A stretch of DNA of 64,000 nt from Candidatus Bathyarchaeota archaeon (GTDB lineage Archaea; Thermoproteota; Bathyarchaeia; TCS64). The notes under the pieces are model-generated. The model was not told the origin of the DNA, searched no databases, and saw nothing but the letters and a program-made list of their open reading frames with translations. Shown piece by piece: positions 37 to 61,210 of this stretch. The position numbers and the translations under genes were made by a program. Position 1 is the first letter of the stretch; every line of letters begins with the position of its first letter. The DNA lies in assembly GCA_043826455.1 (NCBI GenBank), contig JBDRQD010000046.1, forward strand, positions 1 to 64,000, written 5' to 3'.

Positions 37-285
37 CATGAGGCTCGGGCCACATATGAAAAAACGTAGGAGGGCACCCCATTTAGCACAAAAAAACCCC
101 AGAAACACAGCCCACAGCACCTCAAACCCCCGAAAAAGCAGCACCCCACAACGAACACCGCCACCCACCACCACCGCCAAACAACCCCGGAAAACCCTCA
201 GAACACGAAAACAAACCAGAAAACAGGGAACCGCGGTGGCGGTGAAGGGACCCCCCCCCTCCCCCCCACGCACACACACGGACAC
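37..285 (+). repeat. Dispersed element copy E1 (motif D at 53-78; inverted arms 166-177 and 233-244; C-tract/(CA)n tail); probably continues off the window start
   Basis: 156-280 aligns with the reverse complements of 3957-4085 and 60823-60940; 37-130 aligns with 26062-26160. Confidence 0.9.
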
Positions 286-325
286 CCCAGATAAACCCAA
301 ATACCCCCAAACCACAACACACCCA

Positions 326-619
326 ATGACCATCCCAGGCCCCAAACGCAGAAAACTCAAAGCCCAAGCCCACCACCTAAACCCCACCATCCAGATAGGC
401 AAAGAAGGAGTCACCCCCGCCCAAATAGAAACCATAAGACGCCAACTAGACCACCACGAACTCATCAAAATCAAGTTCATCGAACACAAACAACAGCGCA
501 GAGAACTATCCACCCACATCGCCCAACAAACCGACTCAGAAGCCATAGACCTCATAGGAAACACCCTCATCCTCTACAAACAGAACCCAGACCCAACAAA
601 ACGCAAAATAGAAGCCTAA
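326..619 (+). CDS. yhbY: YhbY/CRS1 family RNA-binding protein
   Basis: LKAQAHHLNPTIQIGKEGVT...HELIKIKF...IGNTLILYK; start placed at ATG 326, upstream ORF extension is repeat-derived. Confidence 0.9.
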   Translation: MTIPGPKRRKLKAQAHHLNPTIQIGKEGVTPAQIETIRRQLDHHELIKIKFIEHKQQRRELSTHIAQQTDSEAIDLIGNTLILYKQNPDPTKRKIEA

Positions 620-670
620 ACTCTACGCCCCAAAACAAGTCTTATAAGACAACATCCAGCAGTTCGCATC

Positions 671-1141
671 ATGGCACTCGACCCCACCGACACCGCCATC
701 CTCAGAGCCCTCCAGCAGGACGCCCGAACCAAGTACAGCACCATAGCAGAGGAACGCGGCGTCAGCGTGGACACCATCATCAAACGCTTCAAAAAACTCC
801 AACAACAAGGAATAGTCAAACACACAACCCTCCTCCTCGACCCCCGCAAACTCGGCTACGAAATAATAGCCAACCTGGCCATAGCCGCCGAGCCCAGCTG
901 CATCACCGAAGTCGTAGGCTACCTCCAGAACCGGGAGGGCGTCCTCTTCGCCACCCACACCATGGGCCAGTACGACGTACTCGCCCTAGCCGCCACCCGC
1001 ACCATGAACGAGATGAACGCCCTCAAAGAAGCCATCCAGAGCCACACCAAGGTCACCGACGTCAAAGCCAGCATATGGGTAGACCAGTTCCTCCTATGCC
1101 CCCAGAACTTCGAACTAGAACCAAAGGAGAAGACACAATGA
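671..1141 (+). CDS. Lrp/AsnC family transcriptional regulator
   Basis: LDPTDTAILRALQQDAR HTH; C-terminal RAM domain (GQYDVL). Confidence 0.9.
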   Translation: MALDPTDTAILRALQQDARTKYSTIAEERGVSVDTIIKRFKKLQQQGIVKHTTLLLDPRKLGYEIIANLAIAAEPSCITEVVGYLQNREGVLFATHTMGQYDVLALAATRTMNEMNALKEAIQSHTKVTDVKASIWVDQFLLCPQNFELEPKEKTQ

Positions 1142-1590
1142 ACGAACTCGACAAAAAGATCATAGAAACCCTCACACAGGACGCCAGAACCAGCTTCAGA
1201 AGCATAGCCGCTGAGACAGACAAGTCCACCGACACCATCATCAACCACTACAAACAACTCACAGCCGAAGGCGTCATCAGAGGCAGCACCGTCGTCCTCG
1301 ACACCCAACACATCGGCTACGAAGGCACAGCAGCCTTCCACATAGACGTAACAACCACCGCAGGCCACACACCAGCCCAAGTCCTACAGACCCTCATACG
1401 GATGCCCAACATCATCGTCGCCACCAAGACCGTCGGCGAACACGACCTCCTAGCCCTCGCCGTCATCCACAGCATCCAACACTACACGGAGCTAGGCCGC
1501 CAGATCGCCGCCATACCCGGCGTCCGAAACATCTCATCCAACGTCTGGGCCGGAAACCAAGAGATATGCCCCAAGTACTTCATCATATAG
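1138..1590 (+). CDS. Lrp/AsnC family transcriptional regulator (tandem paralog)
   Basis: MNELDKKIIETLTQDAR...GEHDLL; ATGA overlap with upstream paralog. Confidence 0.9.
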   Translation: MNELDKKIIETLTQDARTSFRSIAAETDKSTDTIINHYKQLTAEGVIRGSTVVLDTQHIGYEGTAAFHIDVTTTAGHTPAQVLQTLIRMPNIIVATKTVGEHDLLALAVIHSIQHYTELGRQIAAIPGVRNISSNVWAGNQEICPKYFII

Positions 1591-1617
1591 AGCCGTCAGC
1601 TGCCGCAGACACACAGA

Positions 1618-2229
1618 TCACTGTCTACGGGCAGACAGCACCCGGTACCCGCTGCCCCTAGACACCACCGTGTGCCCCCTAAAGTACCTGTCCAGGAACC
1701 CGGCCAGGGTCCTACCCCCCGTGTTACTCTGAACAACCAGCTGCAGCAGCCCCCCCGCCTCAAGGTGATCCACGGCCCCAGACACCAGAGGCTCCACCAC
1801 CTTCCTCATCCCCGCCGAGATGGGCGGATTAGAGACGATGGTCGAGAAGACCCGGCCCCCCACAGGCCCGTACAGGTCCCCGGTGAGCACCTCCACGTTA
1901 CCCACCCCCATCCTCCGGACGTTCACCCCGGCCAGCATGGTGGCCCGACTGTTCACGTCCGTCAACGTAACCCTGAGACCCGGCTCCGTCACCGCCGCCA
2001 CTAATCCGATGACGCCGATGCCGCAGCCCATGTCCAGGAGGCCGCCCTCCGCCGGCACCCACATGGACTCCACCAGCAGCCTGGTGCCGTTGTCAATCCT
2101 CTTGTGGCTGAAGACCCCGGTGGCCGTCATGAACCTGTATCGGCGGCCCCTGAGAATCGCCTCTATGATCCCCTTCTCCATCCTGGACCCAGGCTCAGAC
2201 GAGAAGTAGTGGCTCGCCACCGCTACCAC
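1618..2229 (-). CDS. Class I SAM-dependent methyltransferase (RsmC/MTS-like)
   Basis: GVFSHKRIDNGT, LLDMGCGIG, SNPP motifs. Confidence 0.85.
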   Translation of the reverse strand: MVAVASHYFSSEPGSRMEKGIIEAILRGRRYRFMTATGVFSHKRIDNGTRLLVESMWVPAEGGLLDMGCGIGVIGLVAAVTEPGLRVTLTDVNSRATMLAGVNVRRMGVGNVEVLTGDLYGPVGGRVFSTIVSNPPISAGMRKVVEPLVSGAVDHLEAGGLLQLVVQSNTGGRTLAGFLDRYFRGHTVVSRGSGYRVLSARRQ

Positions 2230-3203
2230 GTCTTAGGGTAGACACCCATGGGCATGATCACCCTGACGGCGGACGCCACGATGCCGTGTTCCTCGGCCTG
2301 GATCTTGCCGCTGCTCATCTCGGCCTTCATCAGCGCCACGGACTCCCCCTTCTGAGTCATGACCGCCACCATGTCGCCCACCTCGATCCCGGTCTCGTAA
2401 CGCACCACCCCCGGCACCGCCAGCTGAGCCCCGTTGCAGACGGCCTCAACAGCCGAGTCCCTTATCCACACCTTGGGGAGCAGCCGCAGGCCATCCTCCA
2501 CCGGCCTGATGATCCTCCTAAGAGGTCCCTCGTCCCCCTCGTCTCTCCTGTCGAGGGCGTCCGTGAGGTCGTACATGGTGAAGACCTCCTCCTCCGTGAA
2601 GGGTCCGGCCCGTGTCCTCCTCAGCTCCTGCATGTGGGCGCCGCAGCCCAGCACCTCACCCACGTCGAAGCAGAGCTTCCGTATGTAGGTGCCGCTCTGG
2701 CAGGCCACCCTGAACAGCCAGTTCCTGCCGTCGCCCTCGTAGAAGTCCACTTGGTATATCCACCGGGTCCTGAGGCGGCGGCTCACGCTGCTCCTGAGGG
2801 GCGGCCTCTGGAAGATCTCGCCGGTGAACAGGTCCAGGGCCTCGCGCACCCGTCTCTCAGACACATCCTCGTGGGTCCTCATGACGCAGACGTACTCCTT
2901 GCCGGACTCTAGGAGGGCCTGCACTACCTTGGTGCTGTCCTGCAGCGTCACGGGCAGCACCCCGGTGACCTTGGGGTCTAGGGTTCCGCCGTGGCCTACT
3001 TTATCCAGTTCTAGGAGTTTCTTCACCCAGCTGGCTACTTCGTGGCTGGTGGGTCCGGGCACCTTGTCTATCACCACTAGGCCGAACCTGATGTATTGGG
3101 GTAGAGGTCTCTGGTCTGGGGTGCACCCGTAGTTGGGGTTGGTTGTGTCATCGACTTTGACGCGGGTCTCTCTGGCTGTCTCCCAGGCGGGCCTCTTCTG
3201 CAT
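2223..3203 (-). CDS. cbf5: H/ACA RNA-guided pseudouridine synthase Cbf5 (TruB family)
   Basis: DKVPGPTSHEV, GHGGTLDPKVTG, GTYIRKLC, C-terminal PUA domain. Confidence 0.97.
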   Translation of the reverse strand: MQKRPAWETARETRVKVDDTTNPNYGCTPDQRPLPQYIRFGLVVIDKVPGPTSHEVASWVKKLLELDKVGHGGTLDPKVTGVLPVTLQDSTKVVQALLESGKEYVCVMRTHEDVSERRVREALDLFTGEIFQRPPLRSSVSRRLRTRWIYQVDFYEGDGRNWLFRVACQSGTYIRKLCFDVGEVLGCGAHMQELRRTRAGPFTEEEVFTMYDLTDALDRRDEGDEGPLRRIIRPVEDGLRLLPKVWIRDSAVEAVCNGAQLAVPGVVRYETGIEVGDMVAVMTQKGESVALMKAEMSSGKIQAEEHGIVASAVRVIMPMGVYPKTW

Positions 3204-3276
3204 GGGTATCCATCAACGACTTGGTGACTATAAAGTATAGCTCTTTATACTCAGGAGATCCTCCGACAATTAGGCC

Positions 3277-3951
3277 ATGGCTAAGGCTGTCCTCTTCGAC
3301 CTGGGCAACACCCTGGTGAGCTACTACCAGAGGCATGAGTTCCCCGGGATACTTGAGGAGGCCGTCAACGGCTGCGTGGAGCACCTGCGTGACGCCGGCA
3401 TTGGGTTCCGTGAGGAGGGTCTCTGGGACAGGGTCAAGGAGCAGGATCATGGTTCCCCTGATAACAGGGTTTATCCTCTGGGGTTGCGGCTGGCAGCTAT
3501 ATTTGGTTTGGACGACCAGGTGACCATTGACGGGTTGTGCCGGGTGTTCATGGAGCCTATTTTCGTGCGGGGTAGGCTTTACAGTGATGTGAAGCCTGCC
3601 TTGAGAGCTCTTAGGGCGGGTGGTGTGAAGACGGCTATTGTTTCTAATACGCCTTGGGGTAGTTCTGCTGGTTTGTGGAGGTTGGAGTTGGAGCGGTTGG
3701 GGTTGGCGAGGTTGGTGGATGAGGCTGTGTTTTGTGGTGATGTGGGTTGGAGGAAGCCGGATCCCCGTGTCTTCCAATACGCCTTGAGCAGGATCGGTGT
3801 CGAGGCTGGGGATTGTTTGTTTGTGGGTGATGATCCGAGGTGGGATGTGGTGGGGGCTGTGGGGGTGGGTATGAGGGCGGTGCTGGTGGATAGGACGGGG
3901 GAGGACCCTGATGCCCTGCACGGTCTCGGTGGGCTTCTGGGGCTTCTTTAG
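3277..3951 (+). CDS. HAD-superfamily hydrolase
   Basis: FDLGNTL, VSN, KPDPRVF, VGDD motifs. Confidence 0.9.
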   Translation: MAKAVLFDLGNTLVSYYQRHEFPGILEEAVNGCVEHLRDAGIGFREEGLWDRVKEQDHGSPDNRVYPLGLRLAAIFGLDDQVTIDGLCRVFMEPIFVRGRLYSDVKPALRALRAGGVKTAIVSNTPWGSSAGLWRLELERLGLARLVDEAVFCGDVGWRKPDPRVFQYALSRIGVEAGDCLFVGDDPRWDVVGAVGVGMRAVLVDRTGEDPDALHGLGGLLGLL

Positions 3952-3954
3952 GCT

Positions 3955-4090
3955 GTTTGTGTGTGTGCGTGTGGGGGGGGAGGGGGGGGTCTCTTCACCG
4001 CCACCGCGGTTCCCTGTTTTCGGGGTTGTTTTCTTGTTCTGAGGCTTTTTCTGGGTTGTTTGGCGGTGGTGGTGGTTGGCGGTGGTCGCC
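3955..4090 (-). repeat. Dispersed element copy E2 (arms 3996-4007 and 4063-4074; G-tract 3973-3989)
   Basis: Near-identical reverse complement of 156-280. Confidence 0.92.
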
Positions 4091-4260
4091 GCGGTTTTGT
4101 GTTTGGTGTGTGTGTTCTTTCTTGGTGTGGTTCTCTGCGGGAAAGCCGTGGTAGGTAGATTAAAGGAATTACTTTTTTGATGGGGGTTTATCGTCAACAG
4201 GCCTGGGTGTTGAGTCTTGCGCCTTTGTCATGTTTATTTATTAGGTTTAGCTTGAATTAA

Positions 4261-4557
4261 TTGATGGTTCAGGTTTGTCCTTTTTGTAGGAAACAGATCG
4301 CGGATGAGGATATGGTTTGCCCTTACTGTGGTGATCTCTTGATTTACGAGTATCCGAAGCAGGTAGCGTCTGAGAGAAACGCTGTGTTGTTTCCCGTTGG
4401 GTTTATGCTTCTAATTGGTGCTATTTTGTATGGGGTGTTTCAGTCAGAGTTCAGTGGTGTTATGCGTGGATTGTTTTTCGTCTTCTGGTTGTCTGGGTTC
4501 GTAGTCTTTTGTGTGTACGTTGGTAAAGGGGACAGGGATTTCTGGTGGGGAAGATAA
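4261..4557 (+). CDS. Zinc-ribbon membrane protein
   Basis: CPFC...CPYC followed by two hydrophobic helices. Confidence 0.75.
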   Translation: MMVQVCPFCRKQIADEDMVCPYCGDLLIYEYPKQVASERNAVLFPVGFMLLIGAILYGVFQSEFSGVMRGLFFVFWLSGFVVFCVYVGKGDRDFWWGR

Positions 4558-4673
4558 ATCCAGCCATATAGTGAAAACGTGCGCGTTTAACACAAACCAC
4601 TCTCCCGAGTGTTTGAATTAGTCAATTTATTATCAAGTCGTGGCGAATCGGCGCGCGCACCTAGGCCCCATTA

Positions 4674-4688
4674 TCCTCCGGGCTACCA
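4674..4688 (+). mobile_element. att-like remnant resembling the 3' end of archaeal tRNA-Gln (tcctccgggctacca)
   Basis: Resembles the CCCGGGCTACCA acceptor end; overlaps the 3' end of the integrase remnant; no upstream tRNA body. Confidence 0.5.
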
Positions 4689-5029
4689 CTGTCCATGCTC
4701 AGATATCTGCTACTTCTGAGCTTCTCTAACAGGGTTTTTCAGATAGTTTTCGACAGTATGGTGTATTCTTCTTCCTGTCTCTGCGTAGGATCAATGCTTG
4801 TTCTGTGTGGCTTCAATATAGCTTCCCGGCTCAACACCTCGCTAGGGTCCAAGCCCAATGCCATGGCAACGCCCCTCAGGGTCTCTATCTTGTTCATCTT
4901 GGTTTGTGGCCTGATGCTCAACCCTGCGTTACGATAGACTTCTCTGAGCTCCTCAACGTCTGTACTCTGCATATCGAGATACGTGTCCTGAATGTACCCC
5001 ATCATGCGCGACCACTTGTGTGTTATCAT
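4676..5029 (-). pseudogene. C-terminal remnant of a tyrosine recombinase/integrase
   Basis: MMGY...TY (degenerate H/Y catalytic region) then ELREVY..AGLSIRPQTK..KIE..GLDPSEVLSREA..PHRT; TGA at 4739-4741 interrupts a frame that continues KTLLEKL...SGSPE; N-terminus absent. Confidence 0.7.
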
Positions 5030-5068
5030 TTAAATTGATCCCTGTTTCAGACATTACATAATCTACAA

Positions 5069-5614
5069 ATGGAGAATCATACAATGGAAAGACCTTCAGT
5101 TTTTAAGGACCCCAACTTGTGGGGGGCATCGGTAATAATTCTTATCACAATCATTCTCTCGATAGCCACCTTTTTCCGTTGGTTCTCATTGCGTTTCCAA
5201 GTCGGTCCATTCTCTTTTACTCATTGGCTGGGTTGGATAGGGGCCCTGTTCATAGCATTTTACACGCCAATATACTATGTATTGAAGCGAAGAAACCCGA
5301 AACTAGTCAAAACACTCATCAAAATCCATGTATTTGGTAACCTACTTGGTGTCATGTTGATATCAATACACTACGCCCAACAGATGGGTAGGCCAGCAGA
5401 ATTCTATCCGGAGTTAGGAACAGGATTAACATTGTACATTGTAATGTTCATACTGGTAGCTACAGGTTTCCTTCACAGATTTGGGGTGTTAGATAAATTA
5501 GGGCGATATCGTATATTTCTGCCTCATCAAAATAGGTTTTTACATATTGCTATTACTTTGACTTTTTATATTGTTATACTTGTCCATATACTCCGAAACG
5601 TGGGTATTTTATAG
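5069..5614 (+). CDS. Multi-pass membrane protein with several in-membrane His (possible cytochrome b/ferric-reductase-like)
   Basis: About 5 hydrophobic segments; THWLG, KIHV, SIHY, FLHIA, LVHI; AT-rich. Confidence 0.6.
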   Translation: MENHTMERPSVFKDPNLWGASVIILITIILSIATFFRWFSLRFQVGPFSFTHWLGWIGALFIAFYTPIYYVLKRRNPKLVKTLIKIHVFGNLLGVMLISIHYAQQMGRPAEFYPELGTGLTLYIVMFILVATGFLHRFGVLDKLGRYRIFLPHQNRFLHIAITLTFYIVILVHILRNVGIL

Positions 5615-5665
5615 ACACCTTCATTTTTTTCTTGAAACCACTCAGATGCGCGCGCGTTAAACACT

Positions 5666-6484
5666 TTATTTCAAGTTAGCAGGTTGAGGATTTAGGTCTG
5701 TTATGGAGGATTTTATGGAATCAACTGTTTCCTTGTTCATCGTTACGATGCCCGCCTCCCATGTGATACCTGCGGTAGCATTTTGCTGGAAGTTCATCGA
5801 TGAAACAACCGCCAGTAAATCATCAATGATGACTATTTTTGCGTGTAAATTATTTTCATATAATATTTTTATCCCTTCCTTCAAAAGCCACTCGTGAAGC
5901 TTCTTCACATAAGGTCCACTAGAACTACGAGTTACTACCACAACAGTTCTACCATTTCTCCGTGCTGTGGTCAATAATTTTGTTGGCATACTCCGATCAA
6001 TAAACGGATTAACTACAATTATTGTGTTGAAAGCATGTGTGATGATATATTTAGTGAACGTGTCTAAGTAATGGCCTTCGAGGAAGAAATGCTCTTTTTC
6101 CAGTGAAATTTCAGGTTTTTCTAGTTTTACCCATGACTCAGTTGAAGTGATTATATCAGGATATTTTGGAGAAGGTTCTTCGTAATCATCGGGATATTCC
6201 CATTCCTCGGGAGGTTCAAGCCATTCATCCATATGTTCTTCAAAATATTCATAATCTGCCTCAAGTTCCGGACGTACTCTATATTTACCTGAATCTTCTA
6301 GAATAACATCGCCTTCTTGGATCAGTTCACCTAATAAAATATGAAGGTCAGTCCATTGATACAAAATGGTTTGGTTTAAAATTTTTTCTATTTCTTGAAA
6401 TGTTCTAGCCCCATGAAGAACAATCGCAGAAATAACTTCACCTTTCTCGGTAAACAGATGCTTGATCTCTTTTGGAGCCATCAA
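5666..6484 (-). CDS. Phospholipase D (HKD) superfamily protein, probable nuclease, with N-terminal wHTH-like domain
   Basis: LHAKIVIIDD...SSMN...EAG motif; AT-rich. Confidence 0.8.
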   Translation of the reverse strand: MMAPKEIKHLFTEKGEVISAIVLHGARTFQEIEKILNQTILYQWTDLHILLGELIQEGDVILEDSGKYRVRPELEADYEYFEEHMDEWLEPPEEWEYPDDYEEPSPKYPDIITSTESWVKLEKPEISLEKEHFFLEGHYLDTFTKYIITHAFNTIIVVNPFIDRSMPTKLLTTARRNGRTVVVVTRSSSGPYVKKLHEWLLKEGIKILYENNLHAKIVIIDDLLAVVSSMNFQQNATAGITWEAGIVTMNKETVDSIKSSITDLNPQPANLK

Positions 6485-6573
6485 AAGATAGTAGAGTATT
6501 CAAATTAAAAAATTATGCAAAGCGCTCGCAACACTTAAATAATTTATATTTTGGAAGTATTATATGAAAATTA

Positions 6574-7023
6574 ATGGACTTTATTACAGCATACATCATA
6601 TTTGTAATTCTTTTTATCTTCATTCTAGTTAAATTCGCAAAAAAGCCAACACACAAAACCTATGGCATCCAATCAATTACTAGTGACGGAAGAGAAGTAA
6701 AAAGCTATTCTGAAAAAATATTAGCAGATTACTTTCAAAATATAAATTTACGTTACCAGTATGAGCCAGGCTTAAATGACATATATGCAAATCCCGATTT
6801 CTACTTACCTGATTATGATGTATATGTTGAGTATTGGGGATTGCTTGAAGCAGACGATCCTTATGTCAAGCGTAACTATGAAAATCATATGAAACGTAAA
6901 ATGGCAATTTATTATGAAAATAAAATAAAATTCATTTCGATATACCCAAAAAACTTGGAAAACCTAGACTGGATTTTTAGAAAAAAATTTGAAAACGTAA
7001 CAGGTAAAAAACTACCTCACTAA
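6574..7023 (+). CDS. Membrane-anchored PD-(D/E)XK nuclease-like protein
   Basis: N-terminal TM; VKSYSEKILADY, PDFYL..YVEYWG. Confidence 0.7.
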   Translation: MDFITAYIIFVILFIFILVKFAKKPTHKTYGIQSITSDGREVKSYSEKILADYFQNINLRYQYEPGLNDIYANPDFYLPDYDVYVEYWGLLEADDPYVKRNYENHMKRKMAIYYENKIKFISIYPKNLENLDWIFRKKFENVTGKKLPH

Positions 7024-7331
7024 AATTATCCAACTATTAATCCGAGAATAATGCTTTATTGAACGTAAAATACTCTGATGAACGAATACTCCAAAACTCA
7101 AGATAAGATAATTTCACACTCCATGAATCATACTTACCGTTCACGTCAGCCCAGAAACCAACGAGAACCCATCTATATATTGTGTTTCCTTCAAGATCTA
7201 CCTGACCACGGGGCCCACTCTCCATCTCACAGACAAACAACTCACCGAACTGAAACCAGACTAGATCAGTACCTAGACCCCAGTATCCACCGGGCAACCA
7301 TTATATGAGGCACAGCCCCATGTAACCCATC

Positions 7332-8513
7332 TTGCTGAGTAAAACAGCCGTCAGACGCCTCATGCTCGATAAACAGGGTATAGGCCCCCACACCGGCTCA
7401 GCCGACAAGGAAGCCGTCTACAGGACCATAGACCGCCTGGGCTGCCTCCAGATCGACACCATCAACGTCGTCGAACGAGCCCAGTACCTCACCCTCTGGA
7501 CCAGACTAGACCAATACGACAAGAACAGCCTGGACACCCTAGCCTACCAGGACAGACGCCTCTTCGAGCACTGGGCCCACGCAGCCAGCTACATCCCCCT
7601 CAACGACTACAGGTACTACCTACAATCCATGCAGCAGAGAAGAGAGGAAGCAGAGCAGAGATTCAACCGCCGCACAGGCAAGGACCCAGAACTCATCAAC
7701 AGAGTACTAGACAGGATCAGAGACGAGGGCCCCCTGGGCTCCAGCGACTTCGAGGGCCCCAAACGGAAAGGCGGCTGGTGGAACTGGAAACCCGCCAAGC
7801 TAGCCCTGGAGCTCCTCCTCGGCGCAGGCATCCTCCAAGTCCACCACAGGAACAACTTCCAAAGATACTACGACCTCTCGGAGAACGTCCTGCCCCAATG
7901 GGTGAACACGGAGCCGCCCCCCGACGACGAACGGGTCAGGTTCTTCACCCTCAGAACCCTGGGCGCCCTGGGGGCCGTCAAACCCTCAGACATCAGGGAG
8001 TACTACCACCACTGGTCCGTCAAGCTGGGCCGCACCACCAAGCAGCTGGAGACCACCCTGGAGGAGCTGGTATCGGATGGCTCAGTCGAGAAGCACAGGA
8101 TCGAAGGTGAGAGGCCCAACTACTACGCCCTGGCCTCAGACTCCGCGGACGCCGAGCGACTATCCGACGACTGGGACCTAAACCAGGTGCGCCTCCTCAA
8201 CTACTTCGACAACCTCATGTGGAACCGGGGAAGAGTCCACACCCTCTTCGGGTTCCAGCCCAAGCTGGAGGTTTACCTCCCCGTAGATCAGAGAGTCTAC
8301 GGCTACTACCACCTACCGGTCCTACACGGAGACAGACTGGTGGCCCGCCTCGAACCCAAACTGGAGCGATCCGAGAGCAGCCTCAAGGTGAGAGGCTACT
8401 GGCTGGAGCCTGGCTTCAAACCCACCGAGGAGTACCAGGACAAACTGGAACAAAACCTGTGGTCCCTGGCCCGGCTCACGGGCGCGGACACCGTGACGTG
8501 GGCTACTTCTTAG
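7332..8513 (+). CDS. ycaQ: YcaQ/AlkZ family winged-helix DNA glycosylase (interstrand crosslink repair)
   Basis: LQIDTINVVERAQYL (QxD motif), FEHWAH, RVYGYYHLPVL. Confidence 0.88.
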   Translation: MLSKTAVRRLMLDKQGIGPHTGSADKEAVYRTIDRLGCLQIDTINVVERAQYLTLWTRLDQYDKNSLDTLAYQDRRLFEHWAHAASYIPLNDYRYYLQSMQQRREEAEQRFNRRTGKDPELINRVLDRIRDEGPLGSSDFEGPKRKGGWWNWKPAKLALELLLGAGILQVHHRNNFQRYYDLSENVLPQWVNTEPPPDDERVRFFTLRTLGALGAVKPSDIREYYHHWSVKLGRTTKQLETTLEELVSDGSVEKHRIEGERPNYYALASDSADAERLSDDWDLNQVRLLNYFDNLMWNRGRVHTLFGFQPKLEVYLPVDQRVYGYYHLPVLHGDRLVARLEPKLERSESSLKVRGYWLEPGFKPTEEYQDKLEQNLWSLARLTGADTVTWATS

Positions 8514-14864: not shown

Positions 14865-15311
14865 ATGGAGCTCGTCTACATAGGCCGCGTCCGCTCACCC
14901 GTCACCGAGGCCGTGGACATGAACTGGGGCCATGTCGTCTCCGAGATCGTCCTGGAGCCCGAGTACGCCCCCGGCCTCCAGGGCCTAGAAGAGTTCAGCC
15001 ACGTCCTCGTCCTCACCCACCTCCACAAGGCAGAGTGGGACCCGGAGAAGCACCTCCGGCGCCGCCCCCAGGAGCGCAGCGACATGCCCCTCACCGGCAT
15101 CTTCGCCCAGAGGGCCCGCCACCGCCCCAACAGGATAGGCGTCACAGCCGCCGAGATAGTCGAGGTCACCGGTAACACATTGAAGGTCCGGGCCCTGGAC
15201 GTCGTGGACGGCACCCCCATCATCGACATCAAACCCTACGTACCCTACTACGACCGCAGAGACGCCGCTATCCCCGAGTGGATGACCCGAATGATGAAAG
15301 ACTACTTCTAG
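14865..15311 (+). CDS. trmO: tRNA m6t6A37 methyltransferase TrmO/TsaA family
   Basis: GLEEFSHV, GIFAQRARHRPNRIG, LDVVDGTPIIDIKPY. Confidence 0.92.
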   Translation: MELVYIGRVRSPVTEAVDMNWGHVVSEIVLEPEYAPGLQGLEEFSHVLVLTHLHKAEWDPEKHLRRRPQERSDMPLTGIFAQRARHRPNRIGVTAAEIVEVTGNTLKVRALDVVDGTPIIDIKPYVPYYDRRDAAIPEWMTRMMKDYF

Positions 15312-15363
15312 TTAGCTAAATGCAACCCGAAAAATTATCACATTCTTCCACGCAGCTGTCATC
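15311..15363 (+). repeat. Short intergenic repeat family C, copy 1
   Basis: ttagctaaa-gcaa-cc-aaaaa-tatcacattct...gtcatc shared with 51759-51810. Confidence 0.7.
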
Positions 15364-15475
15364 AGTCCCCCGTATTCGCCTCATTACATGCCATATGTAA
15401 CAAACCCTGAGCCCCCCCACAACACAATTCCCAGCCACTAGGAACAAACCCCAAGAATACCAGAGAAACCAGAGG

Positions 15476-21549: not shown

Positions 21550-22911
21550 ATGATTGATCTAACCGATTTTCTCGGGATTATCCCTGATTGGACCAGGTAC
21601 TACACAGTTGACGAGCTCCATAAGAGGAGTACAGAGATCGCGGATAAGTACCCTGGTAAGGTGAAGTTAATGAATCTCGGTAAGTCGACACAGGGCGAGA
21701 CCATCGACTGCCTGAAGGTGGGCGATGGCAAGTACAACGCATTGATCCACGGCTTCCCGAACAGCGAGGAACCCTACGGTGGGAACCTCATCGACTACCT
21801 AGCCTGTAGGCTAGCCGAGGATGATGAGATCAGGGGGGAGCTCGACTACACCTGGTACTTGATCGGGTGTAGTGACCCAGATGGAGCGAGGCTAAACGAG
21901 GGATTCCAACTCGGCCCCCATACACCGATGAACTTCAGTCTGAACTACTATAGGACGCCGACCAACATGACTCCTGAGTGGTGCTTTCCCTTCAGATTTG
22001 GGCCACTGGACTTGAACAGCCCGGTTGCTGAGACTCGTGCATTGATGAACCTCATGGATAGGATAGATTTCCACTTCGTCAGCAGCCTCCACATGATGAA
22101 ATGGGGTGGAGTCACCTATCAGGTTCCCCATGCTTGCCCTGAGCTGTATGTTCACCTCTGGGAGTCAGCGAGGAGGTTCAACATCTTCCCAAGGAAGAGG
22201 CCGGGTACCACGATTGCTCCGGGAGTGAGTAAGGCATATTACCTGACCGTTGCGAGGGGTTACCTGCGTCAATGGGCTGAGGGGAACACGAACATTGAGC
22301 CCATTAAGGGGTGTTACATTTACGAGTATGGGCAGATGCGGAATCCCCACATGTTTATGATGATACCTGAGTGCACATTCTGGTACGACCCTAGGATGTG
22401 GGATGATACTCCTACGGATGAACCAGTCGGGGACTCCTTAAAGTACGCTCAAAGCGTTGTGACGGATGTGGAAAGCTTCATGCTTGGAGTCTGGAGAGAG
22501 GCGTTGCCCCGTCTGAGGGTGGCGTCCCCATTCAAGCTGATGATTGAGGAGATGATGGAGCCACTCATCAAGAAGTACACTAATGTCAGCAACCCGACGT
22601 TAAGGTTTGACGATAGCGTCCATAACCGTAAGGCTACGGTGGCTGAGAAGGTCGCTATTGAGGGACGCGAGGTCTCTTTCCGCATGACTCACTTGGGAGG
22701 GCTCATTAGGGTTCTGGACGCAGAGCTGGATCAGAGTGTAGATGGAGTGGTTGAGAAGCTACGGGATGAGGTAAATGGCAAATTAGGTGAATATGACAGA
22801 CTTCTCCATAAGAATTTCAAAGTGACTTTAAACCCGATTAAAAATAATGTAGGTATGGGGATAAGCTCCATATTGCACTCGGCGATTTACGCTAGGGGAA
22901 GACAACCCTAG
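21550..22911 (+). CDS. M14 zinc carboxypeptidase-like protein
   Basis: LGKSTQGE, DPDGARLNE, PVAETRAL, SSLH; lower GC than flanks. Confidence 0.8.
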   Translation: MIDLTDFLGIIPDWTRYYTVDELHKRSTEIADKYPGKVKLMNLGKSTQGETIDCLKVGDGKYNALIHGFPNSEEPYGGNLIDYLACRLAEDDEIRGELDYTWYLIGCSDPDGARLNEGFQLGPHTPMNFSLNYYRTPTNMTPEWCFPFRFGPLDLNSPVAETRALMNLMDRIDFHFVSSLHMMKWGGVTYQVPHACPELYVHLWESARRFNIFPRKRPGTTIAPGVSKAYYLTVARGYLRQWAEGNTNIEPIKGCYIYEYGQMRNPHMFMMIPECTFWYDPRMWDDTPTDEPVGDSLKYAQSVVTDVESFMLGVWREALPRLRVASPFKLMIEEMMEPLIKKYTNVSNPTLRFDDSVHNRKATVAEKVAIEGREVSFRMTHLGGLIRVLDAELDQSVDGVVEKLRDEVNGKLGEYDRLLHKNFKVTLNPIKNNVGMGISSILHSAIYARGRQP

Positions 22912-25699: not shown

Positions 25700-26190
25700 G
25701 AATGAGGCATTTCACTGAGGAAAAGCACAGAATATAAGATGGAATTTTTTTTCCGCCTTATCCCGGCTGGTACGGGATAGGCCACCTAACTAACGATACG
25801 CCCACCATGTCAGCACCGGAGCCCCAGACAGAGACAGGGGGGTAGAGCAGGTGAACCGTGAACGGCCGCCCCCGGCCAAAAGGAGCCCGGGAAACACGCC
25901 TTATCGATCCCATTCTATGCAAAAACGTCGTCCATTCCATATAAAAACCCGGCCCAAAAATCACATCAACCACTGCGCAATGGAGAGCCTGATGTGAAAA
26001 AACGTAGGGGGGTATCATATAATGGCGAATATTTTCAACAATACAAGAATTTTAGGGGCCTCATGAAGCCTATGGGCGGGCACATGTGAAAAAAGGTAGG
26101 GGGGTATCGATTTTAGGAAGAAAAAACCTCCTAAAATACGGGCTTCGGACCCTAACCCCACAATAATATGAAATGTGACCCAAATCCTCT
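25700..26190 (+). repeat. Dispersed element copy E3 (core B 25737-25760 plus hairpin; motif D at 25991-26016 and 26083-26108)
   Basis: Collinear with 55565-55945; also matches 37-130 and the reverse complement of 61000-61210. Confidence 0.88.
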
Positions 26191-39926: not shown

Positions 39927-39959
39927 AGGCCCTAATTTATATTTTACAGGTTTTTAAGC

Positions 39960-40010
39960 ACGAAGAAAAAGATGGAAAATTTTTTCCGCCTTATATCCTC
40001 TAGGACGGTA
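39960..40010 (+). repeat. Dispersed element partial copy E4 (core B only)
   Basis: agatggaaaattttttccgcctta at 39970-39993 matches 25737-25760 and 55605-55628. Confidence 0.7.
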
Positions 40011-40033
40011 CAAGCCAGCTACAGTGACGGGGG

Positions 40034-51721: not shown

Positions 51722-51758
51722 ACCCTTATGGGGCGCCGCCCCTGCGCCCAGAAACGTT

Positions 51759-51810
51759 TTTAGCTAAAAGCAATCCAAAAAATATCACATTCTACCCAGC
51801 CACAGTCATC
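51759..51810 (+). repeat. Short intergenic repeat family C, copy 2
   Basis: Matches 15311-15363 with one indel. Confidence 0.7.
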
Positions 51811-51877
51811 TCAAGCCACACCATCATGGCGTAGACCCCAAAGAAACAAAAGCCTAGACCTCCACAGAATCATTGAG

Positions 51878-55479: not shown

Positions 55480-55564
55480 CCGGCACAATAAGGTAGGTAC
55501 CCCCGCCTGAATAGATTTGTAGAAATTTTCGGTTAACCGTGTTTTCTGGGTCTCCAGAGTCTAG

Positions 55565-55945
55565 GACGAGGAGGCGTCTCACCGAGGAAAAAGCATGAAT
55601 CATGAGATGGAATTTTTTTTCCGCCTTATCCCGGCTGGCACGGGATAAGCCACCCAGGAAACTACACGCCAGCGCGTCGGCCCCAGGAATAAGGAGGGGG
55701 TAGAGCAGGTGAACCGGAAACGGCCGCACCACACCAAAAGGGCTCCTAAAACCGGTCCGACGCCGCAAGAATCTTCACAGAAACACGGTCTATTCAGCAC
55801 ATCAGACACGCTGCATCGGAGCCGATGTGAAAAAAGGTAGGGGGTATCACCTAATGACGATTTTCTCTATTATTAAGGGATACCCGCCCCCATGAAACCG
55901 ACACCCGAGGCACCAGCCAAAGAAGAACATAACCCAAATCCTCTT
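55565..55945 (+). repeat. Dispersed element copy E5 (core B 55605-55628, hairpin, motif D 55824-55848)
   Basis: Collinear with 25700-26190. Confidence 0.88.
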
Positions 55946-55977
55946 GTAATATAAGCAGGGGTTCCCCACAAGATATT

Positions 55978-56445
55978 ATGTCTGACATAGTCAAGAAGCT
56001 ACAGGAGCAGAAGGAGCTTGAGCTGAGCCACGTCAAGAGCCTGACGCCCTTGGCCAAGAAGACAGGCCACCCCCTAGTGAAGGTGATCCTCCAGTCCGTT
56101 ATCCATGACAGCGGTAAGCACGCCTCCATATGCCAGGCTCTAATAGACGTCAACGCCGGCGAGACGCCTTACAAGCTGGACCTGGACATGGCTAAGGCCG
56201 TGGAGTTGCACCAGAACATCAAGCAGCACATCAGGGTCGAGTCCAAGATGATCACAAGGCTCGAGACCATGGTGAAGGAGGCTAAGGATGACAGAGTCGC
56301 GGAGCTCCTCAGGTTCATGCTGGAGGACGAGAGGAGACACCATAGGCTCCTCACCGGGCTCTCCAACCTCCTGGACAGGGACGAGACCGCCCTGGACGAG
56401 TACATGAAGCTCTTCCAGACCTTCATGATCGTCCCCCCAGAGTAA
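55978..56445 (+). CDS. Ferritin-like domain protein
   Basis: DSGKH and DERRH helix-bundle motifs. Confidence 0.75.
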   Translation: MSDIVKKLQEQKELELSHVKSLTPLAKKTGHPLVKVILQSVIHDSGKHASICQALIDVNAGETPYKLDLDMAKAVELHQNIKQHIRVESKMITRLETMVKEAKDDRVAELLRFMLEDERRHHRLLTGLSNLLDRDETALDEYMKLFQTFMIVPPE

Positions 56446-56562
56446 TAACCCACCTTTTTCTTCATCCTCTTCACGTAGAGGGCGGATAGCAGAACTTTTA
56501 CAATGAAACTCTTTCATCCATAAACTTATGCAGCCTAAACCAACAGGATCATTGAAGCAGCC

Positions 56563-57774: not shown

Positions 57775-57780
57775 GTGAAC

Positions 57781-58701: not shown

Positions 58702-58769
58702 CCCCCTTTTCTTCAACCACCCGAAATCGTATCATTCATTAACCTGTCCACCAGCCCTATGGATAACTG

Positions 58770-60047
58770 ATGATAACCATACTAGGTGCAGGCCTGGCGG
58801 GCCTCAGCGCCGCCTACCACCTGGGAGACGGCTACAGGGTCCTGGAGCGTGAGGCTGAGCCGGGCGGCCTGTGCAGAAGCTTCGAGGAGAAGGGCTACGT
58901 CTTCGACATCGCCCCCCACATACTGTTCTCGAGGGATGAGTACGCCCGCGGCCTCTTCGCCAGGCTGCTGGAGGGCAACCTGCTGACCCATGACCGCCGA
59001 GCCTACATCTACATGATGGGCACCTACGTCAAGTACCCCTTTGAAGTTAACCTGTACCCCCTTCCCCGGGAAGTCATAGAGGAGTGCATCCAGGGGGTGG
59101 TGGACAGGCCCGCCCTGAAGCCGGGTAACTTCAGGGAGTGGATTCTCGCCTCCTTCGGGGAGGGGATTGCCAGGCACTACATGGTGCCCTACAACGATAA
59201 AACATGGAAGTACCCCCTGGAGAAGATGAACACTGAGTGGCTAGGGGGCCGCGTCCCAAGCCCCAGCGTCGAGGAGATGAGGAGGGGCGCCAAGGGCGAG
59301 CAGGAAGTAGACTACGGCCCCAACGCCCAGTTCTGGTACCCCATGGTGGGCGGGATCGGCTCACTGCCCAATAGGCTGGCTGAGGGGCTGAACGTGTCCT
59401 ACGGGTCCGACGCCGTTGCGGTGAGGCCCACCGAGAAGGGTGTGAAGGTCACCTACAGGAAAGGTGGAGCCGCCAAGACGGTGGAGTCGGAGTACGTGAT
59501 GTCGTCGCTTCCTCTACCAGAGCTCGTGAAGATGTTGCCCGAGGTCCCCGAGGACGTGGTGAAGGCCACGGACAGGCTGGTCCACAACAGCATCGTCTGC
59601 GTCAATGTGGGGGTCAAGAGGCCCAGCATCACAGACAAGCACTGGCTCTACTTCCCGGAGGCCCACCTGCCCTTCAACAGGATCAGCTTCCCCATGAACT
59701 TCAGCCCGGGGACCACCCCGCCTGGCCGCAGCAGCGTCCTGGTGGAGGTGACGTACAGGAGCAGGCAGCCGGACCTAGAGGAGACAAAGGAGGGGGTGCT
59801 GCAGGGCCTGGTGGACGCGGAGCTCATGTTGGAGGGCGACGAGGTGGAGGTCTGCCAGGCGTCCAGCTACAGGTACGCCTACGTCATCTACGACCTGGAC
59901 CACAGGAGGAACGTCGAGGCCGTACACAGGTACCTCAGGGAGAACAGGGTCATACCCATAGGCAGGTTCGGGGAGTGGGAGTACTACAACATGGATAAGG
60001 CCATCCTCTCGGGTAAGAGAGCGGCTGAGGCCCTGAAGGGGAGCTAG
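58770..60047 (+). CDS. FAD-dependent oxidoreductase (UDP-galactopyranose mutase/HemY-like)
   Basis: GAGLAGL, GGLCRS, GRFGEWEYYNMD. Confidence 0.85.
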   Translation: MITILGAGLAGLSAAYHLGDGYRVLEREAEPGGLCRSFEEKGYVFDIAPHILFSRDEYARGLFARLLEGNLLTHDRRAYIYMMGTYVKYPFEVNLYPLPREVIEECIQGVVDRPALKPGNFREWILASFGEGIARHYMVPYNDKTWKYPLEKMNTEWLGGRVPSPSVEEMRRGAKGEQEVDYGPNAQFWYPMVGGIGSLPNRLAEGLNVSYGSDAVAVRPTEKGVKVTYRKGGAAKTVESEYVMSSLPLPELVKMLPEVPEDVVKATDRLVHNSIVCVNVGVKRPSITDKHWLYFPEAHLPFNRISFPMNFSPGTTPPGRSSVLVEVTYRSRQPDLEETKEGVLQGLVDAELMLEGDEVEVCQASSYRYAYVIYDLDHRRNVEAVHRYLRENRVIPIGRFGEWEYYNMDKAILSGKRAAEALKGS

Positions 60048-60048
60048 C

Positions 60049-60777
60049 ATGATCTCCGTGGTGGTGCCCACCTACAACGAGGAGAAGAACATAGAGGGCT
60101 GCCTAAGGTCACTGGTAGATCAGACGGTGCCCCGTGAAGAGATCGACATCATCGTGGTGGACGGGGACAGCACGGATCGGACCAGAGAGATCGCCGAGGG
60201 CATAGCCGACAACTTCATCATCCAAACCAGTGAGGGAGTGGGCGGAGCCAGGAACGACGGCTTCGCCATAGCTCGCGGCGAGATAGTGGCCACCACGGAC
60301 GCTGACTGCCACCCCTTCCCGGACTGGCTAGAGATCATCCAGCGCAACTTCATGGATCCGAAGGTTGTGGCCGTCACCGGGGTCCTGGTGCCCTTCGACT
60401 TCGGCGGCATGGGCAGAGTGGAGGAGTTCGCGTACCGGCTCCTCTTTGACCTGTCTAACGTCGCACTGGTGGTGATGAGCTGGTTCGGTAAGATGCACCT
60501 GTGCGGGGCCAACTCGGCCTTCAGGAAGGACGCGTTCCTGGAGGCTGGGGGCTACCTGCCCCTGGCCTACGCAGATGACGTGGAGATATACAAGAGGGTC
60601 AAGGAGAAGGGTACTGTGAGGCTGGACACCGGGATGAGGATAAACTATAGTGTCCGCCGCATCAGGAAGGTGGGGCTCCTAAGGTACATTCTGCTGTTGT
60701 TCAGGATGGAGTGGGATGTCATGGTGATGGGTAGGAAGCCTGTGAAGGGTGGGTACGCTAGGCAGACCTATGAGTGA
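60049..60777 (+). CDS. Glycosyltransferase family 2
   Basis: SVVVPTYNEE, VDGDSTD, TDAD. Confidence 0.92.
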   Translation: MISVVVPTYNEEKNIEGCLRSLVDQTVPREEIDIIVVDGDSTDRTREIAEGIADNFIIQTSEGVGGARNDGFAIARGEIVATTDADCHPFPDWLEIIQRNFMDPKVVAVTGVLVPFDFGGMGRVEEFAYRLLFDLSNVALVVMSWFGKMHLCGANSAFRKDAFLEAGGYLPLAYADDVEIYKRVKEKGTVRLDTGMRINYSVRRIRKVGLLRYILLLFRMEWDVMVMGRKPVKGGYARQTYE

Positions 60778-60819
60778 GGTGGGGTTTTTGTTGGGGGGAT
60801 CGTTGGGTCTTTGTGTTTT

Positions 60820-61210
60820 CGTTGTGTGCGCGTGGGGGGAGGGGGGGTCCCATCACCGCCACCGCGATTCCCCGTTTTCCGGCTTTTTTTCTGGTTCAGA
60901 GGCTTTTTTAGGGTTCTTTGGCGGTGGCGGTGGTTTGTGGTGTCCGTCGTGTCTGTGGTCGCGTGGGTTGTGTCGTTGTGGGGGGTGGTCGGTGTTCCTG
61001 TGTGGATCAGGGTCGTGTTAGACTGGTTTCTGGGGTCTTTTCGGTCTGGTGTGGACGTTTCTGGTTTCTCTGCCATCTCCCTTTCTGGGGGCTGGTGCCA
61101 GTGTGGTGGGTGATGAGTTGCATGCAAGGCTTATGCTCTCCAGGAGGGTGTAAGGTGGAAAAATATTCCATCTCCTGCCTCATGATTTTACTTCAGTGAG
61201 ATGTTTCCCC
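60820..61210 (-). repeat. Dispersed element copy E6 (core B 61151-61173; perfect arms 60854-60865 and 60921-60932)
   Basis: Carries both the B core and the inverted-repeat module, linking the two repeat sets. Confidence 0.88.

What the first reader, a model, noticed from the sequence alone, without database searches (positions are those of the whole stretch)
37..61210. Modular non-coding dispersed element with 12-bp inverted arms at an invariant 55-nt spacing
Seen: homologous intergenic sequences at ~37-285 (+), 3955-4090 (-), 25700-26190 (+), 39960-40010 (+), 55565-55945 (+) and 60820-61210 (-). They share modules in a consistent order: core B AGATGGAAWWT(n)CCRCCTTA followed in E3/E5 by a hairpin (tatcccg-7nt-cgggata); motif D ATGTGAAAAAASGTAGGGGG(G)TATC; and module A, CACCRCCACCGC-N55-GCGGTGGCGGTG followed by a C-tract and (CA)n. 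In all three A copies the spacer is exactly 55 nt (178-232, 4008-4062, 60866-60920) despite internal substitutions. The G-rich arm survives inside an otherwise G-depleted strand. There is no ORF or terminal inverted repeat around the element. Inference: fixed geometry plus motif retention suggests selection for a protein-binding platform. Inverted sites around an A-tract spacer next to a G-string recall replication origins or DNA-loading/nicking sites, but this is not the canonical archaeal ORB. A structured RNA or a non-autonomous rolling-circle element are alternatives.
Basis: partly seen in the sequence, partly recalled or inferred. Interest (0 to 1): 0.9.

Follow-up and report, generated by a model that had tools for sequence, protein, structure and literature searches.

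The report
Archaeal repeat marking one-strand mutation zones
A short repeat, scattered about 45 times through the chromosome of an uncultured archaeon and kept at matching positions in related species, sits at the start of 1-2 kb zones where one DNA strand has mutated as if repeatedly left single-stranded, and it probably marks recombination hot spots where genes are swapped in and out.

Summary
The motifs and the three 55-nt spacers are real, but they belong to separate interchangeable families: A (~130 bp, 43-46 copies), E (B+G-tract+D, ~410 bp, 46 sites) and an unreported F (53 sites). A's inner 50 nt is indel-free in 103 of 109 copies from 7 genomes; the spacer is as conserved as the arms, has ~10-bp phased A-tracts, and the arms show no register-specific covariation. 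Main finding: silent sites downstream of A shift G>A/T>C on the C-tract strand (37 of 39 copies; mean +0.20 vs 0.007+/-0.08), whatever the gene direction, fading over ~2 kb: the deamination footprint of a single-stranded G-rich strand. A holds orthologous positions across species, is replaced there by other A alleles or by F/E, and has variable, often foreign genes upstream only. The footprint tracks A at filled versus empty sites, yet also occurs at island edges without any repeat. Best reading (0.5): an oriented gap/recombination hot spot working like E. coli RRS or the pilE G4, member of neither; not an ORB origin. The scan noted a repeat-plus-skew on another piece of this genome before.

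The parts
151..280 (+). Module A copy 1: mini right-type arm, left arm 166-177, 55-nt phased A-tract spacer 178-232, right arm 233-244, C-tract, (CA)n
54..78 (+). Degenerate D motif upstream of A copy 1
   Evidence: family D9, 84% to reference
281..2300 (+). Mutation halo of A copy 1 in yhbY (326-619) and two Lrp/AsnC genes: excess A+C at silent sites +0.39, +0.24, +0.33, +0.15, +0.06 per 500 bp; yhbY four-fold sites A0.26 C0.74 G0 T0
3960..4091 (-). Module A copy 2 (arms 4074-4063 and 4007-3996, spacer 4008-4062), at the edge of an AT-rich island
2960..3959 (-). Halo of A copy 2 in the HAD hydrolase gene 3277-3951 (+0.43, +0.16 per 500 bp)
4100..7300 (.). AT-rich island (GC 0.32-0.47) upstream of A copy 2, with a PLD-domain gene; its far edge carries an outward halo (+0.25 falling to +0.08) without any detected repeat
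15310..15453 (+).
25702..26051 (+). Family E copy (B core and hairpin, shortened G-tract, D motif 25992-26016)
26073..26142 (+). Extra tandem D unit after E
39946..40028 (+). Isolated B fragment of family E
51757..51813 (+).
55521..55885 (+). Near full-length family E copy (B hairpin, G-tract, D motif 55825-55849)
60981..61214 (-). Truncated, G-depleted E copy directly upstream of A copy 3
60823..60949 (-). Module A copy 3 (arms 60932-60921 and 60865-60854, spacer 60866-60920); weak halo (+0.13 then about 0)

Best explanation
Module A is an oriented cis-acting DNA site that repeatedly leaves its G-rich (bottom) strand single-stranded on that strand's 5' side, and so acts as a recombination hot spot. 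SHOWN: fixed ~130-bp geometry with phased A-tracts, (CRY)n/(RYG)n arms and a G5-7AG5-7 tract on the bottom strand; a polar C>T and A>G drift of the bottom strand, strongest next to A and fading over ~2 kb downstream and ~0.6 kb upstream with the same sign; orthologous positions kept while the copy itself is overwritten or swapped for F/E modules; variable and foreign genes on the upstream side only. FROM ESTABLISHED KNOWLEDGE: C>T plus A>G on one strand without sequence preference is the spontaneous deamination signature of single-stranded DNA (PMC3269012). INFERRED: synthesis on the G-strand template stalls, or the fork breaks, at a G-quadruplex and/or a protein wrapped on the bent spacer; the gap or resected 3' tail ends at A and extends into the downstream host gene; RadA-dependent exchange in that conserved flank converts A copies among loci and species, shuffles the H/U/A/E/D modules, and pulls in or replaces cargo genes upstream (one-sided homologous anchor, illegitimate joint on the other side). 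No trans-acting protein was identified.
For: Halo: 37 of 39 measurable A copies positive downstream, mean +0.196, null 643 intergenic positions 0.007+/-0.081; equal for co- (15 loci, 0.22) and anti-oriented (19 loci, 0.185) downstream genes and without tRNA (30 loci, 0.21). Four-fold sites 0-300 nt downstream: co genes A.29 C.60 G.08 T.03, anti genes A.01 C.19 G.55 T.25, genome A.12 C.45 G.31 T.11. Decay +0.34,+0.26,+0.18,+0.15,+0.11 per 200 bp; upstream +0.12,+0.13,+0.06. No neighbour-base preference. Same polarity in three relatives and in genus g19 (no baseline computed there). Filled versus empty orthologous sites: keto-switch ratio 1.51 (321:213; 19 loci, 12 distinct sites) against 0.97 (999:1033) for distant genes and 0.92 where G000 has F/other modules. 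At one gene the two genomes with A are skewed (C at four-fold sites 0.03-0.06 in G000, 0.12 near the end in G013) while ten GC-rich relatives without A have 0.19-0.50. Of 61 relatives' A copies with a downstream orthologue, 35 have a same-orientation module at the matching spot in G000 (19 A, 14 F, 2 E fragments); upstream side same-sized in only 16 of 49. Low-GC3 genes: 38 of 118 upstream, 9 of 117 downstream, 10% genome-wide; upstream genes include GNATs, PIN/antitoxin, glyoxalase, nitroreductase. Concerted evolution: GACTAC-type tail in 0 of 38 G000 copies, 17 of 31 G013, 19 of 27 G008; orthologous copies no closer than paralogues (0.736 vs 0.724/0.739, 17 pairs); at three G000/G044 sites A is 73-89% identical while genes 130-1200 nt downstream are 88-95%. 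G070 and G071 share a 98%-identical A patch inside otherwise 72-83% context, with a ~180-bp duplicated stub of the downstream gene. G4Hunter-like score >=1.5 on the bottom strand in 107 of 109 A copies. RadA/Rad51 and NurA genes are present.
Against: Halos also occur without any detected module: 79 of 140 strong skew peaks (my U profile missed some units), 27 of 61 large-island edges above +0.1 versus 5 below -0.1, and at yhbY in most genus members lacking A. In the filled/empty test only 12 of 19 loci lean the expected way and loci are not independent. Family E carries the same G-tract on the opposite strand (31 of 38) yet shows only a weak halo of the same sign (+0.05) and none of opposite sign, so a G4 alone does not explain it. 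Some A copies have almost no halo (e.g. window copy 3). Downstream-stub duplications are anecdotal: 3 of 35 A in G000, 0 of 49 in relatives, 5 of 255 null. Neutral divergence may be near saturation, which weakens the orthologue-versus-paralogue comparison. Single-strandedness itself was not measured; gene calls came from my own ORF picker.
Confidence: 0.5

Rival explanations
1. Passenger model: the halo belongs to hypervariable loci (island edges, tRNA 3' ends), produced by repeated breakage and repair there; A, E and F are non-autonomous mosaic repeats (BIME/MITE-like) that insert in a fixed orientation into such single-stranded hot spots and do not cause them.
For: Halos at island edges and at yhbY without A; 79 of 140 peaks without a detected module; different families at the same orthologous spot; 11 of 45 A and 5 of 53 F abut tRNA 3' ends, all in one orientation; patchy distribution, 8 of 32 genus genomes and 8 of 12 in genus g19; E has a sharp 5' end.
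Against: Halo follows A at filled versus empty sites; no target-site duplication evident in 18 full-length E flanks or 8 inspected A sites (by eye); no partner transposase: one Y1 TnpA with an internal stop, no reverse transcriptase, no large paralogue family tied to the sites; no hits in viral contigs, phages or plasmids; indel-free geometry across two genera is unusual for a decaying passenger.
Confidence: 0.25
2. Dispersed unidirectional replication primers: transcription along the G-strand forms an R-loop or hybrid G4 at the G5-7AG5-7 tract, as at mitochondrial CSB II, and primes strand-displacement or recombination-dependent replication at dozens of sites.
For: The tract matches the CSB II G5AG7 motif (PMC4176368, passages); the displaced G-strand would be deaminated on both sides, as seen; tRNAs read into A in 11 of 45 cases and never the other way; 22 of 38 downstream genes point at A; no long-range skew on the 14 largest contigs; no ORB-like box upstream of cdc6.
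Against: Halo is as strong where downstream genes point away from A; it is stronger on the side a primer would not extend into and dies within 2 kb; F sites lack the tract but have halos; many archaea have weak skew anyway (recalled).
Confidence: 0.12
3. Transcription terminator or structured RNA trailer: the bottom strand is a series of T-tracts after tRNAs and convergent genes, closed by a long stem.
For: Bottom-strand T-tracts; tRNA and convergent-gene context; slightly more arm pairing than shuffles (81.8% vs 80.0%, 4 of 500); the B hairpin of family E has a compensatory pair (A-T 14, C-G 19 of 44).
Against: Sliding the pairing by three columns gives the same covariation score (0.255 vs 0.254); no register stands out among 22; folding z-scores -0.7 to -3.0; no Rfam hit; does not explain a halo upstream of tRNA promoters or in genes pointing away.
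Confidence: 0.08
4. Orc1/Cdc6-bound bidirectional replication origins (ORB pairs around an unwinding element).
For: Inverted arms around an A-rich spacer next to a G-string; one A copy lies ~70 nt after the cdc6-HTH operon in G000 and G044.
Against: One cdc6 for ~45 A sites; no skew inversion across A; recalled ORB patterns give 0 and 2 hits, none at a site; A not found by the model beside cdc6 in five other genomes.
Confidence: 0.05

Closest known systems
E. coli Replication Risk Sequences (RRS/TRIP1; PMC10592627, parts 1 and 3 of 6 read)
   Same: Non-coding, position-conserved repeat with a G4-prone strand; a one-sided ssDNA zone of about 2 kb, greatest next to the element.
   Different: RRS are two 222-bp copies symmetric about dif and act only with G4 on the lagging template; A has ~45 copies in both orientations, opposite copies 3.7 kb apart both have halos, it is swapped between species, borders variable genes, and the gap here is inferred from mutation, not measured.
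Neisseria pilE G4/garP recombination initiator (PMC13463697, abstract read)
   Same: Oriented G-rich cis site next to DNA that undergoes Rec-dependent gene conversion.
   Different: Single locus with silent donor cassettes and a dedicated sRNA; here dozens of sites, no donor array and no transcript shown.
Mitochondrial CSB II and H-strand deamination gradient (PMC4176368, PMC3488243, PMC3269012; passages read)
   Same: G5AG7-like tract; C>T plus A>G on the G-rich strand, graded with distance.
   Different: No homology implied; gradient is local (2 kb) and repeated at many chromosomal sites; no fixed promoter upstream.
BIME/REP mosaic repeats (BIME counts and gyrase binding from PMC10592627 introduction; REP/RAYT details recalled)
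   Same: Dispersed intergenic mosaics of a few modules in fixed orientation.
   Different: No REP-type palindrome in A, no intact HUH transposase found, and no mutation halo known to me for BIMEs.
Homology-facilitated illegitimate recombination (PMC3240628, abstract read) and tRNA-targeted islands
   Same: Conserved anchor on one side, foreign genes on the other, occasional duplicated target ends.
   Different: Those need no dedicated repeat and have no described strand polarity.
Archaeal ORB origins (PMC4010727, PMC5333045; passages read)
   Same: Inverted repeats, A/T-rich centre, G-string.
   Different: Not cdc6-linked, wrong copy number, no skew inversion.

Membership tests
E. coli RRS | G4-forming sequence on one strand | tested here: met
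   Prediction only: G4Hunter-like score >=1.5 on the bottom strand in 107 of 109 copies, top strand 1 of 109
E. coli RRS | One-sided ssDNA gap up to ~2 kb | tested here: inconclusive
   Deamination-type halo of that size and shape; ssDNA not measured
E. coli RRS | Active only with G4 on the lagging template, hence polar along a replichore | tested here: not met
   58 of 103 neighbouring sites share orientation; facing copies 3.7 kb apart both have halos; mixed strands along a 1-Mb contig of G066
E. coli RRS | Conserved chromosomal position | tested here: met
   35 of 61 orthologous spots hold a same-orientation module
E. coli RRS | Sequence homology to the 222-bp repeat | not tested
   No search of E. 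coli genomes was run; an exact A pattern hit no enterobacterial record among 185,579 genomes
Archaeal ORB origin | Adjacent to an orc1/cdc6 gene | tested here: not met
   1 of 45 A sites; single cdc6
Archaeal ORB origin | ORB consensus boxes | tested here: not met
   Two recalled patterns: 0 and 2 hits, none at a site
Archaeal ORB origin | Skew changes sign across the site | tested here: not met
   Same sign on both sides
MITE / IS-derived element | Terminal inverted repeats and target-site duplication | tested here: not met
   None evident in 18 E flanks and 8 filled/empty or swapped A sites, by eye; conserved sequence continues outside the arms
MITE / IS-derived element | Autonomous partner with the same ends | tested here: inconclusive
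   Five-copy transposase-like family lies at no site; one interrupted Y1 TnpA; other genomes not screened
REP/BIME, IS200/IS605 derivatives | Mosaic of modules in fixed orientation | tested here: met
   43 of 43 multi-module clusters
REP/BIME, IS200/IS605 derivatives | Conserved hairpin plus tetranucleotide and an HUH transposase | tested here: not met
   Hairpin with a compensatory pair only in E; no intact TnpA in G000; tetranucleotide not examined
Integron attC/attI | One bottom-strand hairpin site per cassette in an array, with IntI | tested here: not met
   Sites are single or paired, no register-specific pairing; six tyrosine recombinase hits, none tested for the IntI insertion
CSB II-type R-loop primer | G5AG7-like tract | tested here: met
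   C5+TC5+ tract in A; motif from PMC4176368
CSB II-type R-loop primer | Transcription through the tract on the G strand | tested here: inconclusive
   22 of 38 downstream genes and 11 tRNAs point into A, but halos do not depend on this; no RNA holder listed
Structured ncRNA family | Rfam match or register-specific covariation | tested here: not met

The most novel reading that the evidence does not exclude
Bathyarchaeia of this family use about 150 interchangeable, oriented cis cassettes (A, F, E) as programmed single-strand gap or break sites: a chromosome-wide system that starts recombination (and perhaps recombination-dependent replication) at fixed loci, exchanges the cassettes between loci and even between genera, and captures accessory genes on one side without an integrase or transposase, leaving a mitochondria-like deamination scar at each site.
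Probability: 0.25. Interest if true: 0.9.

Novelty: new variant of a known kind. Interest (0 to 1): 0.72.

Why it matters
Local, polar C>T/A>G gradients of this strength in protein-coding genes were not found described for a prokaryotic chromosome in my ten literature searches. They give a sequence-only readout of where single-stranded DNA persists in an uncultured, globally abundant archaeal lineage, tie it to a defined 130-bp element that can be synthesised and tested, and offer a concrete candidate for how these archaea gain genes and possibly replicate without a dominant origin. The skew metric can be run on any archaeal genome to find analogous gap-forming elements, for which the RRS paper says no screens exist.

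Tried and rejected
Rfam: no hit in the window at gathering score or in five loci at E<=0.05. No tRNA in the window. Exact A, E and F patterns in viral contigs: 0 each; E in plasmids and A in phages by blastn: none. Motif search for a short trigger at halos lacking a module returned only A/C-rich words. Replichore polarity and long-range skew: not seen. Islands bracketed by divergent element pairs: not seen (1 of 21 divergent pairs under 5 kb); only 3 of 21 islands have halos on both sides. Enzymatic deaminase context: none. Reverse transcriptase: none found in G000; uracil-DNA glycosylase is present, so the halo is not a simple repair loss. DprA in 3 of 32 genus genomes, not tracking A. Sequencing runs: no RNA holder listed; small-share runs were laid but tell nothing on expression. 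Class labels had an orientation bug and the anchor was off by a triplet; both were redone (59) and only the redone numbers are used. In one search the fuzzy left-arm measure splits between 52 and 55 nt because the arm is a triplet repeat; the inner-block offset (103 of 109 at zero) is the figure to trust. One search used the wrong side of a locus and is uninformative; one search found too few E-like copies in G048 to test polarity. An A-like stretch after cdc6 in G067 seen by eye was not recovered by the model. PMC10730292 gave no passage for my terms. No structure or complex prediction was run because no candidate protein emerged.

Full report
1. Observation. The three A copies, their arms and exact 55-nt spacers are at the stated places, as are the B and D motifs. 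Contigs of run X1 reproduce window 1-4033 and 4057-8000 letter for letter (possibly the source sample). The window is contig C46 of G000 (2.95 Mb, 81 contigs, GC 0.58, 97.7% complete, 7.2% contaminated). An exact A pattern hit 17 loci among 185,579 genomes: 13 in records titled Bathyarchaeia/Bathyarchaeota and 4 in a record titled Ca. Desulfaltia, a label I did not test.

2. Three families, one oriented system. A profile finds 43 A copies in G000 (46 with the cross-genome model). B and D belong to a separate ~410-bp family E: 77 hits, 38 near full length, 46 sites, with patchwork haplotypes, a G-tract on the top strand, a hairpin with one compensatory pair and tandem extra D units. A self-comparison of intergenic DNA revealed a third family F (head H plus palindromic U units; 53 sites). 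Combinations H-A, H-U-U, E-A, E-D-D and A-D-D occur, and all 43 multi-module clusters are single-stranded in orientation. A occurs in 8 of 32 genus genomes (one hit weak) and 8 of 12 genomes of genus g19 (six strong), weakly or not at all in the other 18 genomes searched; E fragments in 3 of 5 genomes; U-like motifs in 12 of 32. Incomplete assemblies limit absence claims.

3. Anatomy of A. In 109 copies from 7 genomes the inner 50 nt has no indel in 103 and a 1-nt shift in 6. The spacer is as conserved as the arms (0.83 vs 0.77 and 0.80), with near-invariant A-tracts whose autocorrelation peaks at 9-10 and 19 nt, the pattern of bent or wrapped DNA (inference). The arms are (CRY)n and (RYG)n triplet repeats with every third base fixed; a short right-type arm precedes the left arm in 86 of 109. 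Pairing between arms is not register-specific: z at most 2.7 in frame and up to 3.4 out of frame among 22 registers; 81.8% paired vs 80.0% shuffled, but the +3 slide scores the same. The bottom strand carries G5-7AG5-7 and scores as G4-prone in 107 of 109.

4. The halo. Using my own ORF picker, silent sites of genes next to A shift toward A and C on the top strand, hence toward T and G on the bottom strand, in genes of either direction. Per copy 37 of 39 are positive downstream (mean +0.196; null 0.007+/-0.081, n=643), 30 of 39 upstream (+0.065); gene direction and tRNA presence do not matter. The profile falls from +0.34 to about +0.05 by 1.4-2 kb. There is no neighbour-base preference, and A loss on the bottom strand is as strong as C loss, matching spontaneous deamination of single-stranded DNA as described for the mitochondrial H strand (PMC3269012, passages). 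F sites show the same polarity (44 of 50, +0.12), E weakly (29 of 43, +0.05). Relatives and genus g19 show it too. No long-range skew was seen on the largest contigs, and site orientation is near random (58 of 103 neighbours alike). I found the halo and noted the CSB II likeness before consulting earlier scan notes, which report the same on another piece of this genome; one of them calls the repeat a bystander of a tRNA promoter.

5. Cause or passenger. For: where a relative has A and G000 has nothing, silent differences lean A/C-ward in the relative 321:213 (ratio 1.51; 12 of 19 loci, 12 distinct sites), against 0.97 for distant genes, 0.92 where G000 has F or remnants, and 0.56 where both have A (G000's halos are the stronger). 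At one gene the two A-bearing genomes are skewed and ten GC-rich relatives without A are not. Halos are no weaker without tRNAs. Against: 79 of 140 strong peaks have no detected module, edges of large AT-rich islands without repeats show outward halos (27 of 61 above +0.1, 5 below -0.1; ordinary intergenic 72 and 50 of 630), and the yhbY locus, an old tRNA-linked hot spot, is skewed in most genus members lacking A and in some other genera. So A is a strong local source or marker of a process that is wider than A.

6. Evolution of the sites. Of 71 relatives' copies, 61 had a downstream orthologue in G000; there G000 has A (19), F (14), an E fragment (2), E reversed (5) or nothing detected (21); the upstream side is same-sized in 16 of 49 assessable cases. 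Low-GC3 genes are enriched upstream of A only (38 of 118 vs 9 of 117) and include cassette-like accessory genes (67 of 105 listed genes scanned). Eleven A and five F sites abut tRNA 3' ends, all with the tRNA pointing in. Copies at orthologous sites are overwritten: genome-specific tails, no excess identity of orthologues, A diverged more than its flanks between close genomes, and a near-identical A patch shared by G070 and G071 with a duplicated stub of the downstream gene. Such stubs are not enriched overall (3 of 35, 0 of 49, null 5 of 255).

7. Mechanism. The geometry means single-stranded G-strand with its 3' side at A, reaching into the conserved host flank. This fits a polymerase stall or fork break at A followed by a gap or resected tail, then RadA-dependent exchange in the flank and extension through A into the variable side (same-sign upstream halo). 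It does not fit resection from the ends of an incoming linear donor (opposite strand expected) or a bidirectional origin (sign flip expected). G4 alone is insufficient because E has the tract on the other strand with no opposite halo; the bent spacer and arms, presumably protein-bound, must contribute (inference). RadA and NurA genes are present; no partner mobile-element enzyme was found. I give this 0.5, the passenger model 0.25, R-loop priming 0.12, terminator/RNA 0.08, ORB origin 0.05.

8. Comparison with known systems. It works most like E. coli RRS (PMC10592627, parts 1 and 3 of 6 read) and the pilE G4 (PMC13463697, abstract) but fails RRS polarity and copy number; it shares the CSB II tract (PMC4176368, PMC3488243, passages), BIME-like mosaicism, and the one-sided anchor of homology-facilitated illegitimate recombination (PMC3240628, abstract). 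ORB criteria (PMC4010727, PMC5333045, passages) are not met. Ten full-text searches listed no paper describing these repeats or such halos in archaea; the library lacks most subscription papers. REP/RAYT, attC and ORB consensus details are recalled.

9. Verdict. Real, constrained, undescribed repeat system with a striking and testable mutational footprint; mechanism inferred, trans factor unknown. New variant of a known kind (gap-forming/recombination-initiating cis element); interest 0.72.

Noticed in passing
window 15310-15453 (+) and 51757-51813 (+): Two copies of a third repeat family (F: head H plus palindromic U units), 53 sites genome-wide, with the same halo polarity as A; it replaces A at 14 orthologous loci.
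   Followed up: yes
window 4100-7300: AT-rich island with a PLD-domain gene and several unknown ORFs; its right edge has an outward halo in the AlkZ-like gene without any detected repeat.
   Followed up: partly
window 35109-36887: Low-GC (about 0.45) alanyl-tRNA synthetase gene next to a GC-rich leucyl-tRNA synthetase gene, suggesting a horizontally replaced synthetase.
   Followed up: no
window 21550-22911: Low-GC M14 peptidase gene; relative G013 has an A copy at the matching position after the upstream ABC gene (L113).
   Followed up: partly
L077, L083, L240-L245 upstream of cdc6: A ~20-nt pyrimidine-rich box is conserved just upstream of cdc6 in all 8 loci examined across four genera; a candidate Cdc6 autoregulatory or mini-origin site.
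   Followed up: no
L258/L275 (G071:C44) versus L257 (G070:C71): Tandem A copies flank a zinc-transporter-like gene; the first A is 98% identical to G070's and is followed by a ~180-bp duplicate of the downstream gene's end. In genus g19 A is followed by a B-like core.
   Followed up: yes
G000:C39:51124-51221 (L151): An A copy so G-depleted that it scores only E 1e-6, at the centre of the second strongest skew peak of the genome, next to a tRNA-Leu.
   Followed up: partly
G000 contigs C1, C8, C45, C52: Sets of 3-5 paralogous unknown membrane and small proteins, suggesting several copies of an integrated archaeal virus or plasmid.
   Followed up: no
L168:10807-17064 (G000:C67): 2086-aa RHS-repeat protein between tyrosine recombinase genes and a DDE transposase.
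   Followed up: no
L191 (G000:C11:12716-13072): The genome's only IS200/IS605 TnpA hit has an in-frame stop.
   Followed up: no
L080:1023-2742 (G000:C75): Three tandem DUF4760 genes directly upstream of an H-A site.
   Followed up: no
L227, L228, L247-L252 (genus g13): E-like G-tract elements upstream of yhbY and in a few copies elsewhere in another genus.
   Followed up: partly
G000 tRNA genes without a nearby module (e.g. C56:4458, C57:83922, C59:27303, C75:11642): Halos of -0.17 to -0.24 on the 5' side of several tRNAs lacking A/E/F, same polarity as A-adjacent tRNAs.
   Followed up: partly
G000:C32:882-1427: DprA gene present in only 3 of 32 genus genomes.
   Followed up: no
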